From Escherichia coli (GTDB lineage: Bacteria > Pseudomonadota > Gammaproteobacteria > Enterobacterales > Enterobacteriaceae), in NCBI RefSeq assembly GCF_003790525.1, contig NZ_CP033635.1: 64,000 nucleotides of DNA. One strand, written 5' to 3'. The translations under genes and the position numbers were made by a program. Position 1 is the first letter of the stretch. Each line of letters opens with the position of its first letter. Shown here one piece after another: positions 6,707 to 9,541 of the stretch. The notes under the pieces are model-generated. The model had not been told where the DNA came from, searched no databases, and saw nothing but the letters and a program-made list of their open reading frames with translations.

Positions 6707-7498
6707 TTAATTTCGGGAGAAGCTTAAGGTTGCCACATCGACAGTTTCATCACACAGGTTTTTGTCCTGAAATACTTTCTTATTTTTGACTTTAGCTAGC
6801 CATTGCCCGACATGAAGGGAGGGTACAGTGATGATACCGTCCTCATTACTTACAAAGGTAAGTTCTGCTTTATGAGCCGAATGTTTATGCTCTGCCGCAT
6901 GAGTATGGCGGGATGATTTCAGATAACTGACAGAGTCAAGCTCCAGAGTGGCTCCGGCAAGCGGGGAAGTTTTATACAGAACTTTCAGCTTCACATCTTC
7001 ACCGAAACGACTGATATCGGATAACGGAATGATTTCAAGCTCATCCCCTATTGGATACTGATAGAGTTGTGCTGGCATCTGCTGTTCACCAGGAATAAAA
7101 GATTTTGCATATTTAGTCACAAACTCACAGTATGCCACATCATTTCTGCCCTCCCGGCTGACAGGCTTCCATCCTGACGAGGTTCTCGACCAGTATCCCG
7201 GTTTCATTTTCGTTGACAGAACGTAGCTATTACCGTTGCCTGCAGTCTCAATTTTATAGACATAATCCGTGGATGTTGGCTTCAGCGTTATTGTCTCTTT
7301 CCCGTTATAAAGCCGGGGAGTTTCAAAGAAATCCCTTCTGTCAGGAATCGTGCCCTTTGAGGGGAAATTATGACCATAACCAATCTCTGCGATAACGTTG
7401 TTCTCTGCCTGTTTGCCGGTAATCCAGACATCATGGGCCAGGACATGCCCCGATGCTGTCAGACAAAGAGCTAAGATATAGCCTGTATTTTTCATCAT
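6707..7498 (-). CDS. secreted periplasmic protein co-transcribed with the heme receptor (tentatively DUF4198-like)
   Basis: 263-aa ORF with signal peptide, 19 bp downstream of the receptor gene on the same strand; family assignment from memory only. Confidence 0.5.
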   Translation of the reverse strand: MMKNTGYILALCLTASGHVLAHDVWITGKQAENNVIAEIGYGHNFPSKGTIPDRRDFFETPRLYNGKETITLKPTSTDYVYKIETAGNGNSYVLSTKMKPGYWSRTSSGWKPVSREGRNDVAYCEFVTKYAKSFIPGEQQMPAQLYQYPIGDELEIIPLSDISRFGEDVKLKVLYKTSPLAGATLELDSVSYLKSSRHTHAAEHKHSAHKAELTFVSNEDGIITVPSLHVGQWLAKVKNKKVFQDKNLCDETVDVATLSFSRN

Positions 7499-7516
7499 GA
7501 TTTATTTCCTGAGAGG

Positions 7517-9487
7517 TTACCACTGATAACGGGTATAAAGACTGACAGTTCGGCCTGAAAGCGGCACACCTTTGCCATTCATGGCAAGCTTGTTGAAGGC
7601 ATTATCCAGAGTTACTGACGCCTCAAAGCCTTTAACACTTACAGGCTTATAAGACAGTGAAAAGGAATGTATGGCATAGCCAGCCTGATAGGAGTCGCCT
7701 TTTTTCACATGCGTGGCTGATGCTGAAAGTTCAGCACGCCATCCGGCATAAACGCCTCTATGACCAACAGGTATGCTGATGTCACTGATAAGTGTGTCAG
7801 GATTGCCGGAGCCCAGCCATTCCCTGCTGCTGGCATCCATACTTTCCGTCCGGTTATAAGAAAGCACCCAGTCAACATAATCAGACTGGTAATTTCCCTG
7901 CATATCCCATCCCCAGATACGGGCCCGGGATACATTATAAGAATAAGAACGCATCCGTTTCATATCCACGCGTGTGGCAATATAGTTTCTGGCATCCGTT
8001 CCGAAATATCCGCCTTTTAACTGCAGCCGGTCATTGTCTGTAAGCAGGCCATCCAGTTGAATACCTGCGCCAATCTCACGGGTGATGTTATTTTCTGGTT
8101 TCAGATTAAGGTTAGGAACCCAGTAATTGGGTTTACCCTTGCGGTAAAAATGTACATCATCCCTGTACATTTCTGCCATTGTGGGCGCTCGGAATGCAGA
8201 GGATATGGAGCCGTACATCATCAGCCAGTCTGTCGGTGAGACTGAAATCGCCGCCCTTGGGGACAGGCGTTCGGCTTTCAGTTCTCCGGCACGGGGATTG
8301 AAGCTCTTGTACCGGTCATAGCGGGAACCGACGATAATGTTAACAGGGTAGCTTTTCATTGTCATTTCATCCTGGAAATACAACGATGTAAAGTCAATAT
8401 TTCCTTCCGGATATAGTGTGGCAGAGCCTTCTGGCTTCTGCTGCTGACGGTAATATTCAGCGCCATAACTTAACTGATGGGCTCCCGGAAAAATCAGAGT
8501 ATGACTCCTGTTGACAACATTAACACCGGAGGTTCTGTTGTTTCTCCATTCTGCCGTTTTGTTGTGACCGTTTGTCTTGATAGTGATATCACTGAGATAT
8601 AACGTTGACTGTACATTGATGAGGCTGTTATCCACAGGAGCGTACTGGTACCAGAACTGTACGTCATTTTGTACTGTTTTTCTGTCACGCAGGCCGCTGT
8701 CACCATGTGTCTGAGTGGGATTGCCCGGTTCAGTGGTGTTATTCCGGTAGAGACGCAAGCTGGCACCTGCTTTGTTACTGTCTGTTATACCGACAGAGCC
8801 TTTCGCAAACAGGGCTGCAGGTTTTTCCTTGTTAGGTGCGCGCTCACCATCACTTTGATAGATATTACCTCTTTTACGCATAATGACAGAAAGGATCGCA
8901 TCTGTTTTTCCGGTTTTACCGAACCAGGTGAGCCCCGAGCCTGTGCTGTGGTCACCACTGGCAATATTTCCCCACAGACTTAAACCGTTTGTCTCTCCGG
9001 GGGGAAGGAAATCTGCTGCATCGGCAATTCTGAAGTCCACTACACCTCCCAGCCCGCCACTGCCGTACAGACTGGAGTTTGGCCCGCGGACAACTTCGAT
9101 ACGTTTGACAAGAGCCGGATCCAGATAAGTGCCACTGCTTTTTGCCATGTCACTAAGTTGGCGGACGCCGTCAACAAGAACAAGTACCCCGCTTTTGTCA
9201 TAGCCGCGTAGATTAAAGGTCTGCCCATTGGTCCGTCCTGCACCAGTCTGGCTGAGACCGGCAACACCTTTCAGCATGCCGGCCGATGTAACCGCATTCT
9301 GACTCCACGGTGTGTCATTCGTGACGACACTGACCATCGACGGCGTTTCAAATACCGTGTTCTGATTTCCTGTCGCGACAATGGTGATTGTATCTTTAGC
9401 CATAGAAGAATGACTGGTCGCTGCCTGTAGTCCCACCGGGACTATAATTAATGTACAAATGACAGTTCTGATTACATTCATATACAT
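7517..9487 (-). CDS. TonB-dependent outer-membrane heme/hemoglobin receptor family protein
   Basis: 656 aa, signal peptide, plug-domain motifs, FRAPTMAEMY (FRAP box) and NYWVPNLNLKPE (NPNL-box variant), C-terminal ...YQW; resembles ChuA/ShuA but clearly diverged. Confidence 0.8.
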   Translation of the reverse strand: MYMNVIRTVICTLIIVPVGLQAATSHSSMAKDTITIVATGNQNTVFETPSMVSVVTNDTPWSQNAVTSAGMLKGVAGLSQTGAGRTNGQTFNLRGYDKSGVLVLVDGVRQLSDMAKSSGTYLDPALVKRIEVVRGPNSSLYGSGGLGGVVDFRIADAADFLPPGETNGLSLWGNIASGDHSTGSGLTWFGKTGKTDAILSVIMRKRGNIYQSDGERAPNKEKPAALFAKGSVGITDSNKAGASLRLYRNNTTEPGNPTQTHGDSGLRDRKTVQNDVQFWYQYAPVDNSLINVQSTLYLSDITIKTNGHNKTAEWRNNRTSGVNVVNRSHTLIFPGAHQLSYGAEYYRQQQKPEGSATLYPEGNIDFTSLYFQDEMTMKSYPVNIIVGSRYDRYKSFNPRAGELKAERLSPRAAISVSPTDWLMMYGSISSAFRAPTMAEMYRDDVHFYRKGKPNYWVPNLNLKPENNITREIGAGIQLDGLLTDNDRLQLKGGYFGTDARNYIATRVDMKRMRSYSYNVSRARIWGWDMQGNYQSDYVDWVLSYNRTESMDASSREWLGSGNPDTLISDISIPVGHRGVYAGWRAELSASATHVKKGDSYQAGYAIHSFSLSYKPVSVKGFEASVTLDNAFNKLAMNGKGVPLSGRTVSLYTRYQW

Positions 9488-9518
9488 TCATATACATCCG
9501 AAAACATATGCCGGTATT

Positions 9519-9541
9519 AAAATGTTATAACATAACATTTT
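9519..9541. promoter_or_regulatory. inverted repeat AAAATGTTAT-aac-ATAACATTTT upstream of the heme receptor gene; candidate operator
   Basis: 10-bp perfect arms with 3-bp spacer, about 30-55 bp upstream of the receptor start codon. Confidence 0.3.

What the first reader, a model, noticed from the sequence alone, without database searches (positions are those of the whole stretch)
6707..9541. Island-borne heme receptor operon with no cognate permease, ATPase or heme-utilisation genes
The 656-aa TonB-dependent receptor has the FRAP box (FRAPTMAEMY) and an NPNL-box variant (NLNL) diagnostic of heme/hemoglobin receptors, yet differs substantially from ChuA/ShuA. It is followed 19 bp downstream by a secreted 263-aa protein. 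No periplasmic heme-binding protein, permease or heme oxygenase is in the vicinity. A 10+10 bp inverted repeat (9519-9541) lies in the upstream region, where a Fur-type or other repressor site would be expected, though it is not a canonical Fur box. The IS2 remnant ends only about 230 bp upstream and could influence expression.
Basis: partly seen in the sequence, partly recalled or inferred. Interest (0 to 1): 0.55.

Follow-up and report, generated by a model that had tools for sequence, protein, structure and literature searches.

The report
Zinc-regulated ChuA-like receptor operon
The two genes are real, but the palindrome in front of them is a binding site for the zinc sensor Zur, not the iron sensor Fur. 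This heme-receptor look-alike and its zinc-binding-type periplasmic partner therefore look like a mobile zinc-starvation module, which has not been described in E. coli.

Summary
An intact 656-aa TonB-dependent receptor (7517-9487, minus strand) lies 18 nt upstream of an intact 263-aa secreted protein (6707-7498). No heme-utilisation or permease genes are nearby. A perfect 11+11 inverted repeat sits upstream.

The interpretation needs revising:
- The repeat matches the 23-bp enterobacterial Zur box at 19 of 22 specified positions, as well as proven K-12 operators do.
- It shares a 16-mer with the EMSA-validated hlyII Zur operator and overlaps a predicted extended -10 promoter.
- There is no Fur box.
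- The same box recurs upstream of relatives in Salmonella, Providencia, a metagenome and four E. coli contexts. A canonical hemP-hemR operon carries a Fur box instead.

The receptor is a full-length ChuA/ShuA paralogue (about 45% identity). It belongs to a separate clade (bootstrap 100/100) that has lost the plug histidine needed for heme uptake and is always followed by a DUF4198 gene. That partner is a homologue of Neisseria Zcp, a periplasmic zinc-capture protein, and has its own His-rich loop. In CFT073 (c1265-c1267) a COG0523 GTPase gene follows.

Best reading: a Zur-repressed outer-membrane and periplasmic zinc-acquisition module that feeds the chromosomal ZnuABC transporter. Zur control is well supported. 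The transported substrate (zinc, or heme/porphyrin) is inferred.

The parts
9519..9541 (.). Zur box (operator). The minus strand reads AAAATGTTATGTTATAACATTTT. The perfect palindrome arms are 9518-9528 and 9532-9542.
   Evidence: 3 mismatches to GAAATGTTATANTATAACATTTC; it is the only match in 64 kb, with 0 expected in 100 shuffles. The 11+11 inverted repeat is perfect. Proven K-12 operators have 2 (znuA/C), 4 (zinT) and 6 (ykgM) mismatches. The site shares the 16-mer TGTTATGTTATAACAT with the EMSA-validated J96 hlyII operator. It is conserved upstream of relatives.
9524..9551 (-). Predicted sigma-70 promoter: -35 TTGCAT (9551-9546), 16-nt spacer, extended -10 TGtTATAAC (9532-9524). The Zur box overlaps the -10 and the spacer.
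   Evidence: Read directly from the sequence. The automatic scan missed it because it requires T at the last -10 position. The -35 and -10 are conserved in the CFT073, IncF, L017 and Klebsiella copies. Inferred, not mapped.
7517..9487 (-). 656-aa TonB-dependent receptor, a ChuA/ShuA paralogue of the DUF4198-linked clade (CFT073 c1265 equivalent). It has a signal peptide, the TonB box DTITIVA, FRAP and NLNL boxes, the L7 His446 retained and the plug His replaced (SDMAKSS).
6707..7498 (-). 263-aa secreted DUF4198 protein, Zcp-like (CFT073 c1266 equivalent). It has a mature N-terminal His22, GYGH (His43), a Cys124/Cys249 pair and a His-rich loop SRHTHAAEHKHSAHK (about residues 197-211).
   Evidence: Pfam DUF4198 E 9e-25. 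PDB Zcp 9mhi E 2.7e-22. AF2 pLDDT 90.9 and Foldseek TM 0.74-0.85 to Zcp. Alignments.
6673..6696 (-). GC-rich hairpin 11 nt after the DUF4198 stop codon. It may be a 3' end or stabiliser, but it has no U tract.
   Evidence: Fold -15.4 kcal/mol, z -2.1. Conserved in CFT073, where a COG0523 gene follows 264 bp downstream. Weak evidence.
6594..9630 (-). Extent of the mobile two-gene module (promoter, operator, both genes, hairpin), as shared with CFT073 (96.1%) and, slightly shorter, with IncF plasmids (94.3%).
   Evidence: blastn. IS66-family sequence starts below 6594 and unrelated or IS2 sequence lies above 9630.

Best explanation
This is a Zur-repressed, horizontally mobile zinc-starvation module.

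When zinc is sufficient, Zn-Zur binds the 23-bp operator that overlaps the extended -10 of the module's own promoter, and both genes are shut off. Under zinc limitation, for example host calprotectin, the operon is derepressed.

The receptor is a ChuA/ShuA paralogue energised by TonB. It brings zinc, free or bound to a carrier, across the outer membrane. The co-transcribed periplasmic DUF4198 protein captures the zinc with its histidine-rich loop and conserved histidines. It keeps the zinc available for the chromosomal ZnuA/ZinT-ZnuBC importer and for periplasmic zinc enzymes.

This explains why the island carries no permease or ATPase.

**Shown:** gene integrity and selection, family relationships, the Zur-box match and its conservation, absence of a Fur box, obligate pairing with DUF4198, and loss of the plug histidine.

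**Inferred:** that Zur actually binds and represses here, that the promoter is as drawn, and above all that zinc is the transported substrate.
For: **1. Operator**
- Only one site in the 64-kb window lies within 3 mismatches of the 23-bp Zur consensus, with 0 expected by chance.
- It is as close to consensus as the proven K-12 operators: znuA/C 2, zinT 4, ykgM 6 mismatches.
- It contains the 16-mer found in the EMSA-validated hlyII Zur operator of UPEC J96 (PMC5916954) and the 15-mer core of ykgM, one of the two tightest-binding K-12 operators (with zinT) in PMC4219657.

**2. Phylogenetic footprint**
- A Zur box at about -44 to -55 is present in the window, CFT073, an IncF plasmid, a fourth E. 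coli context, Salmonella (2 mismatches), a metagenomic relative and Providencia. The flanking sequence is otherwise unrelated.
- The best Fur-box matches in these regions are at background level (7-9 mismatches).
- In the canonical Citrobacter hemP-hemR-hemSTUV operon the pattern is reversed: Fur 2 mismatches, Zur 9.

**3. Partner protein**
- DUF4198; homologous to N. gonorrhoeae Zcp (E 2.7e-22; predicted fold TM 0.74-0.85).
- Zcp is a Zur-regulated periplasmic zinc-binding protein (PMC12663993).
- The enterobacterial receptor-linked subclade carries 4-8 histidines in one loop, where most of the 101 relatives aligned have 0-1.

**4. Receptor clade**
- All relatives found with 47% identity or more are followed by DUF4198 and lack hem genes.
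- The clade separates from ChuA-type receptors with 100/100 bootstrap support.
- It has 25 fixed differences, including loss of the plug histidine.

**5. Linked COG0523 gene.** In CFT073 and 235 genomes a COG0523/CobW GTPase gene follows. That family is repeatedly tied to Zur regulons (PMC2770081).

**6. Precedent.** Zur-regulated TonB-dependent receptors that rely on ZnuABC exist, such as ZnuD and TdfH/J.
Against: - No experiment here shows Zur binding or zinc transport.
- The receptor shows no ZnuD-like His/Asp-rich surface loop and no clade-specific cluster of Zn ligands. It scores only 46 bits on the ZnuD model, against a cut-off of 950.
- It keeps the hallmarks of porphyrin receptors: the FRAP box and the invariant L7 histidine. 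The ligand may therefore still be a tetrapyrrole.
- The DUF4198 partner lacks the three histidines that bind zinc in Zcp. Zcp itself was dispensable for zinc import.
- Other DUF4198 proteins respond to iron or bind nickel.
- The Klebsiella copy has only rearranged half-sites.
- The CFT073 COG0523 protein appears to lack the CxCC motif and has no Zur box of its own.
Confidence: 0.55

Rival explanations
1. The module is Zur-regulated but imports a porphyrin. In one version, heme is taken up as a ready-made cofactor, because heme synthesis in E. coli depends on the zinc enzyme porphobilinogen synthase (HemB). In the other, zinc-protoporphyrin is taken up as a zinc source. Passage across the inner membrane would use Dpp or Chu systems encoded elsewhere.
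For: - The receptor is a full-length ChuA/ShuA homologue above the TonB-hemin cut-off, with the FRAP box and an invariant L7 histidine.
- Clade-specific Met114 and Tyr448 lie next to the two heme-ligand positions and could act as replacement axial ligands (inference).
- Other bacteria place zinc-independent HemB paralogues under Zur, so zinc starvation does threaten heme supply.
- Loss of one of two axial histidines would suit a five-coordinate Zn-porphyrin (inference).
Against: - In the characterised receptors the plug histidine is needed for heme uptake, and the whole clade lacks it.
- No heme-handling gene is ever linked to the module.
- The obligate partner belongs to a family whose two solved members bind Zn/Co/Cu/Ni ions, not porphyrins.
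- A COG0523 gene follows in CFT073.
Confidence: 0.25
2. One reading: a classical iron/Fur-controlled orphan heme or hemoglobin receptor that serves iron acquisition, like ChuA or Hma.
For: Family membership by sequence. It sits in virulence islands beside iro, sfa and sit genes and on ExPEC IncF plasmids.
Against: - No Fur box lies within 3 mismatches anywhere in the window, and the best upstream match is 8 of 19 mismatches, which is background.
- A Zur box is present and conserved across genera instead.
- The plug histidine is lost.
- The receptor is unrelated to the TonB-dependent receptor at the presumed hma locus of CFT073 (E 0.11).
Confidence: 0.04
3. An uptake module for another transition metal (Ni, Co, Cu), or a module whose palindrome is bound by a regulator other than Zur.
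For: Zcp crystals also bound Cu, Co and Ni, and a Ni-bound DUF4198 structure exists. The invariant mature N-terminal His plus a second His resembles N-terminal metal sites used for Ni or Cu (inference).
Against: The operator matches the Zur consensus as well as proven E. coli Zur sites do. E. coli NikR, RcnR and CueR sites are unrelated in sequence (general knowledge).
Confidence: 0.1
4. Decaying cargo between insertion sequences, with no current function.
For: It is flanked by IS2 and IS66 remnants. The COG0523 gene present in CFT073 is missing here. A 10-bp duplication lies in the leader.
Against: - Both ORFs are intact, with dN/dS 0.09-0.23.
- About 1,100 of 5,426 complete E. coli genomes and 762 plasmid records carry the pair.
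- The promoter and operator are conserved.
Confidence: 0.03

Closest known systems
ChuA / ShuA (and HemR/HmuR) TonB-dependent heme receptors of E. coli, Shigella and Yersinia
   Same: - Full-length homology (PDB 9dhe, 3fhh; E about 1e-166; 43-45% identity).
- Same size, with plug plus 22-strand barrel.
- TonB box, FRAP box and the L7 histidine (ShuA His420).
   Different: - The plug histidine (ShuA His86) is replaced, TDTGHLN to SDMAKSS, in the whole clade.
- The NPNL box reads NLNL.
- A Zur box replaces the Fur box.
- The next gene is DUF4198 rather than hemS/chuS and hemTUV.
ZnuD (N. meningitidis, A. baumannii, P. aeruginosa) and TdfJ/TdfH: Zur-regulated TonB-dependent zinc receptors
   Same: These are outer-membrane TonB-dependent receptors under Zur. 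They have no inner-membrane transporter of their own and depend on ZnuABC.
   Different: Different receptor subfamily: 46 bits on the ZnuD model against a cut-off of 950, and 25 bits to PDB 4rdr. No His/Asp-rich surface loop was seen. Zinc transport is not shown for the E. coli protein.
Zcp (NGO1049) of Neisseria gonorrhoeae, a DUF4198 periplasmic zinc-capture protein (PMC12663993)
   Same: - Same family and fold (E 2.7e-22; TM 0.74-0.85).
- Signal peptide.
- Conserved Cys pair and N-terminal His.
- Zur box upstream.
   Different: - The Zcp zinc triad (His29/His31/His142) is absent.
- The E. coli protein has an internal His-rich loop and a GYGH motif instead.
- It is encoded in an operon with a receptor, whereas the close Zcp-like relative examined here (L020) stands alone with its own Zur box. 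The genomic context of zcp itself was not examined.
CFT073 c1265-c1267 (PAI-serX) and the copy next to RepFIB on IncF plasmids
   Same: This is the same module at 96% and 94% nucleotide identity, including promoter and operator.
   Different: CFT073 has a COG0523/CobW gene (c1267) downstream. That gene is a TraDIS fitness candidate in systemic infection (PMC3855560). The window copy is cut off by an IS66-family element after the hairpin.
Hma (c2482) of UPEC
   Same: Both are accessory TonB-dependent receptors of ExPEC annotated as heme-related, and both lack the canonical histidine pair. That statement for Hma rests on my recollection of Hagan and Mobley 2009; the paper could not be opened.
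   Different: There is no meaningful sequence similarity to the 721-aa receptor at the presumed hma locus (E 0.11). That receptor is followed by its own binding protein, permease and ATPase.

Membership tests
TonB-dependent heme/hemoglobin receptor family (TIGR01785; ChuA/ShuA/HemR) | Profile score above the curated cut-off, and full-length homology to solved heme receptors | tested here: met
   406.4 bits against a cut-off of 316.85. ChuA and ShuA structures at E about 1e-166 over residues 32-656.
TonB-dependent heme/hemoglobin receptor family (TIGR01785; ChuA/ShuA/HemR) | FRAP and NPNL boxes with the conserved histidine between them (ShuA His420 / HemR His461) | tested here: met
   FRAPTMAEMYRDDVHFY...VPNLNLKPE. 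His446 is invariant in all 15 aligned receptors. NPNL is degenerate (NLNL) in the E. coli alleles.
TonB-dependent heme/hemoglobin receptor family (TIGR01785; ChuA/ShuA/HemR) | Plug-domain histidine (ShuA His86 / HemR His128) that supplies the second heme ligand | tested here: not met
   ChuA-type TDTGHLN aligns to SDMAKSS, GMAISS or GMDKSS in all 8 DUF4198-linked receptors.
TonB-dependent heme/hemoglobin receptor family (TIGR01785; ChuA/ShuA/HemR) | Fur box / iron regulation, and linkage to heme-utilisation genes (hemP/S/T/U/V, chuS-Y) | tested here: not met
   The best Fur match upstream has 8 of 19 mismatches, which is background. None lies within 3 mismatches in the window. No hem genes are in the window or beside any clade member. 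The control hem operon has a Fur box at 2 mismatches.
TonB-dependent heme/hemoglobin receptor family (TIGR01785; ChuA/ShuA/HemR) | Heme binding and TonB-dependent heme transport | not testable with these tools
   Needs hemA-complementation and binding assays.
E. coli Zur regulon | Operator matching the Zur box, placed over the promoter | tested here: met
   3 mismatches to the 23-mer, with 0 expected by chance. Proven operators have 2-6 mismatches. It shares an identical 16-mer with the EMSA-validated hlyII site. It overlaps the predicted extended -10, as do the znuC and zinT sites (-22 to -3 and -23 to -4). The promoter itself is predicted only.
E. coli Zur regulon | Operator conserved upstream of orthologues | tested here: met
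   7 of 8 independent contexts, with 2-6 mismatches and the core TGTTATG(T/A)TATAAC. The Klebsiella copy has half-sites only.
E. coli Zur regulon | Zur binding in vitro, and derepression in a zur mutant or under zinc limitation | not testable with these tools
   No paper reporting it was found in the searchable library.
ZnuD-type zinc piracy receptors (NF038289) | Profile membership and a His/Asp-rich zinc-binding surface loop | tested here: not met
   45.9 bits against a cut-off of 950, plug region only. 24.9 bits to PDB 4rdr. No clade-specific His/Asp/Cys cluster.
DUF4198 / Zcp periplasmic metal-binding proteins | Pfam DUF4198 domain, three-layer beta-sandwich fold, signal peptide, conserved disulfide pair | tested here: met
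   PF10670 E 9e-25. AF2 pLDDT 90.9 with Foldseek to Zcp at TM 0.74-0.85 and to the Ni-bound 9gcb. Cys124 and Cys249 are invariant in the seven-sequence alignment with Zcp and align with the two Zcp cysteines. The signal peptide ending VLA|HDVW was read from the sequence.
DUF4198 / Zcp periplasmic metal-binding proteins | Zcp zinc triad His29/His31/His142 | tested here: not met
   Zcp AHTHG aligns to GKQAE, and GHES aligns to GEQQ. The substitutes are an internal loop with 5 His, invariant His22 and His43.
DUF4198 / Zcp periplasmic metal-binding proteins | Zinc binding | not testable with these tools
   Needs ITC or ICP-MS on the mature protein.
Hma (UPEC heme receptor) | Sequence similarity to c2482 | tested here: not met
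   E 0.11 against the 721-aa receptor at NC_004431.1:2355304-2357469. Its identity as c2482 was inferred from position and size and was not confirmed by locus tag.

The most novel reading that the evidence does not exclude
A ChuA paralogue has been rewired from iron control to zinc control in order to import a porphyrin under zinc starvation. The cargo would be either heme, to bypass the zinc-dependent HemB step of heme synthesis, or zinc-protoporphyrin, as a zinc source. The clade-wide loss of one of the two axial histidines would suit a five-coordinate Zn-porphyrin. The DUF4198 partner would take the metal or ligand in the periplasm.
Probability: 0.2. Interest if true: 0.85.

Novelty: new variant of a known kind. 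Interest (0 to 1): 0.62.

Why it matters
[quoted passage not shown] It is common: about one in five complete E. coli genomes, including CFT073 and APEC strains, and more than 700 IncF plasmids. It sits among ExPEC virulence genes.

In current annotation its receptor is labelled either generically as a TonB-dependent receptor or, on IncF plasmids, as a hemoglobin/transferrin/lactoferrin family receptor. That labelling can mislead iron-acquisition inventories and vaccine-antigen lists.

If confirmed, it gives a testable route by which ExPEC resists calprotectin-type zinc starvation. It also gives a natural example of a heme receptor recruited to another metal regulon, and a second, differently built DUF4198 protein to compare with Zcp.

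Tried and rejected
- **Fur box.** No match within 3 mismatches in 64 kb. Upstream regions are at background.
- **Gilston skeletal motif RNNNYRNNRYNNYRNNNY.** Too degenerate to be informative: 228 matches against 266 expected. It does hit three registers inside the site.
- **Hma identity.** Rejected.
- **ZnuD membership.** Rejected.
- **COG0523 gene in the window.** Absent. There is no separate Zur box before cobW in CFT073.
- **Heme-utilisation or zinc-transporter genes in the window.** None.
- **Literature.** Ten full-text searches found no paper describing this E. coli module or its regulation. Hagan and Mobley 2009 and Panina 2003 could not be opened. The Zcp paper's supplements are not held. 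So I cannot exclude that transcriptome tables or RegPrecise-type resources already list c1265-c1267 as zinc-responsive.
- **Clade-specific Zn-ligand clusters in the receptor.** None found.
- **Structure model of the DUF4198 protein.** It could not be inspected at atomic level, so the geometry of His22, His43 and the loop remains unknown.

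
Full report
**What is there.** Between an IS66-family element (3818-6460) and an IS2 TnpB remnant (9734-10486) lie two intact co-directional genes on the minus strand.
- The first is a 656-aa TonB-dependent receptor (7517-9487), with Pfam Plug and barrel domains.
- The second, 18 nt downstream, is a 263-aa protein with a signal peptide and a DUF4198 domain (6707-7498).
- The upstream inverted repeat is in fact 11+11 nt and perfect.

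**What the receptor is.** It scores above the curated cut-off of the TonB-hemin family (406 against 317 bits). It aligns end to end with the ChuA and ShuA crystal structures (E about 1e-166).
- It is not Hma. The 721-aa receptor at the presumed hma locus of CFT073 is unrelated (E 0.11) and has its own ABC transporter.
- It is not ZnuD-like either (46 bits against a cut-off of 950).

A database search shows a small set of closer relatives: E. coli alleles, Klebsiella 83%, a metagenomic protein 55%, Salmonella 51% and Providencia 47%. A large mass of ChuA/HemR orthologues sits at 43-44%. In a neighbour-joining tree the first set separates from the ChuA type in 100 of 100 bootstraps.

The two sets differ at 25 fixed positions. 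The most telling is the plug apex. ChuA-type TDTGHLN carries the histidine that is ShuA His86 / HemR His128. Every member of the other clade has M-[A/D]-[K/I]-[S/G]-S there instead. The loop-7 histidine is invariant in both clades.

**Gene context separates the two clades completely.** Every relative examined at 47% identity or more is followed within 6-21 nt by a DUF4198 gene. Otherwise these copies sit in unrelated neighbourhoods:
- CFT073 PAI-serX
- beside RepFIB on IncF plasmids
- another E. coli context
- Klebsiella
- Salmonella
- Providencia
- two metagenomic contigs

. A canonical ChuA-type gene from Citrobacter sits instead in hemP-hemR-hemS-hemT-hemU-hemV.

**The palindrome is a Zur box.** On the coding strand it reads AAAATGTTATGTTATAACATTTT.
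- It matches the classical 23-bp consensus GAAATGTTATA-N-TATAACATTTC with 3 mismatches. It is the only such site in 64 kb, and none occurred in 100 shuffles (consensus quoted in PMC4219657).
- Scored the same way, the experimentally established K-12 operators have 2 (znuA/znuC), 4 (zinT) and 6 (ykgM) mismatches.
- The window site contains the 15-mer core of the ykgM operator, one of the two tightest binders (with zinT) in Gilston et al..
- It also contains the identical 16-mer TGTTATGTTATAACAT of the hlyII operator of UPEC J96, which binds Zur in gel shifts (PMC5916954).
- By inspection the box covers the spacer and an extended -10 (TGtTATAAC) of a promoter with -35 TTGCAT. This is the arrangement reported for znuC and zinT.
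- No Fur box lies within 3 mismatches anywhere in the window.

**The operator is conserved where nothing else is.**

| Context | Zur-box mismatches |
|---|---|
| Salmonella | 2 |
| Window | 3 |
| CFT073 | 4 |
| IncF plasmid | 4 |
| Fourth E. coli context | 4 |
| Metagenomic relative | 6 |
| Providencia | 6 |
| Klebsiella | half-sites only |

All of these keep the core TGTTATG(T/A)TATAAC about 45-55 nt before the start codon. In all of them the best Fur match is at background (7-9 mismatches). The control hemP promoter shows the reverse: Fur 2, Zur 9.

**The partner protein.** The DUF4198 protein is a homologue of Zcp of N. gonorrhoeae (E 2.7e-22). A confident AlphaFold model (pLDDT 90.9) superposes on Zcp structures with TM 0.74-0.85. 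The next match is a nickel-bound DUF4198 protein.

Zcp is a Zur-regulated periplasmic homodimer that binds one zinc per subunit through His29, His31 and His142. It supports growth in low zinc without being required for import (PMC12663993).

The E. coli protein keeps the disulfide pair and the mature N-terminal histidine but lacks the Zcp triad. Instead it has an internal loop with five histidines, SRHTHAAEHKHSAHK. This trait is shared by the receptor-linked enterobacterial subclade (4-8 His) but is absent from most of 101 relatives. Across those relatives the mature N-terminal His is invariant and the GYGH histidine is conserved in at least 90%. Stand-alone relatives also carry Zur-like boxes.

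**Distribution and selection.**
- At least 80% of the region is present in 1,114 of 5,426 complete E. coli genomes.
- The pair is in 762 plasmid records, mostly conjugative IncF.
- Homology among copies covers 9630-6594, that is promoter, operator, both genes and a hairpin. The two-gene unit is therefore what moves.
- In CFT073 and 235 genomes a COG0523/CobW gene (c1267) follows. It is absent from the window.
- dN/dS is 0.09-0.23 for both genes.

**How it most likely works.** Zn-Zur represses the operon. Under zinc starvation the receptor and its periplasmic partner are made. The receptor carries zinc, or a zinc-bearing ligand, across the outer membrane. The DUF4198 protein holds it in the periplasm for ZnuA/ZinT-ZnuBC.
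- I rate Zur control at about 0.85 and zinc as the substrate at about 0.55.
- The main rival (0.25) keeps Zur control but has the receptor import heme or zinc-protoporphyrin. The protein retains porphyrin-receptor hallmarks and shows no obvious zinc-binding loop. Zinc starvation also threatens the zinc-dependent HemB step of heme synthesis, as shown by Zur-regulated hemB paralogues elsewhere.
- A Fur/iron heme receptor, another metal, and decay are each unlikely.

**Novelty.** Zur-regulated TonB-dependent receptors and DUF4198/Zcp are both known kinds. A ChuA-family receptor under Zur, fixed in an operon with a His-loop DUF4198 protein and spread on E. coli islands and IncF plasmids, was not described in any paper I could find. 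[quoted passage not shown]

The literature check has gaps. Two key papers and all supplements were unavailable.

Noticed in passing
L002:32574-33773 (CFT073, gene after the DUF4198 gene; absent from the window): The COG0523/CobW protein c1267 reads ...FVSITSDSISSQ... where COG0523 proteins normally carry the metal-binding GCxCC motif, so its cysteines appear lost. It has no Zur box of its own (9 mismatches). It was a TraDIS fitness candidate in systemic infection (PMC3855560). It is linked to the pair in only 235 of 5,426 genomes.
   Followed up: partly
window 9478-9497 (-): A 10-bp tandem duplication, ATGTATATGA, lies in the leader and start region. It is absent from CFT073. It creates an out-of-frame ATG 10 nt before the real start codon and might lower translation of this allele.
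   Followed up: no
window 10869-12140 (-) and 12175-13812 (+): A divergent pair of a peptidase T paralogue and an orphan DppA-like binding protein (883 bits, below the DppA cut-off of 1005), with no permease genes. DppA-type proteins can deliver heme to DppBCDF. However, an IS2 remnant separates this pair from the module, and the pair does not accompany the module in other strains.
   Followed up: partly
alignment A4 (101 DUF4198 proteins); window protein residues 22 and 43: The first residue of the mature protein (His22, after ...A|H-D-V-W) is invariant, and the GYGH histidine is conserved in at least 90% of the family. Neither belongs to the published Zcp zinc triad. Zcp was crystallised with extra residues before this histidine (chain starts MVH...), so a conserved N-terminal metal site may have gone unseen.
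   Followed up: partly
window 6707-7498 compared with L002, L003 and L017: The DUF4198 gene is far more variable between E. coli copies than the receptor gene. Window against CFT073 is 92% nt for DUF4198 and 98.6% for the receptor. One allele with only 73% aa identity sits beside a 97% identical receptor. This suggests recombination or diversifying pressure on the periplasmic partner.
   Followed up: partly
L007:4800-5000 (Klebsiella pneumoniae copy): The Klebsiella relative keeps the -35 and -10 but has only one Zur half-site at the promoter, plus a second, inverted half-site downstream (GTTATAACATTACAAAATGTTAT). Its regulation may differ.
   Followed up: no
window 1-20710: The island is a mosaic. 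It holds a DsbD-like fragment (2000-3508), an IS66-family element whose transposase reading frame is interrupted and split into two ORFs (3818-5422), a dolP paralogue (15432-16058), an Adr/OmpW-like outer-membrane protein (16774-17523) and a P4-type integrase (19517-20710). The integrase abuts lptG (20962-22047). No tRNA gene is detected anywhere in the window.
   Followed up: partly
L022:17464-22470 (CFT073): The 721-aa TonB-dependent receptor at the presumed hma locus is followed by a binding protein, a FecCD permease and an ATPase. So that receptor, unlike the one studied here, has a cognate ABC transporter.
   Followed up: no
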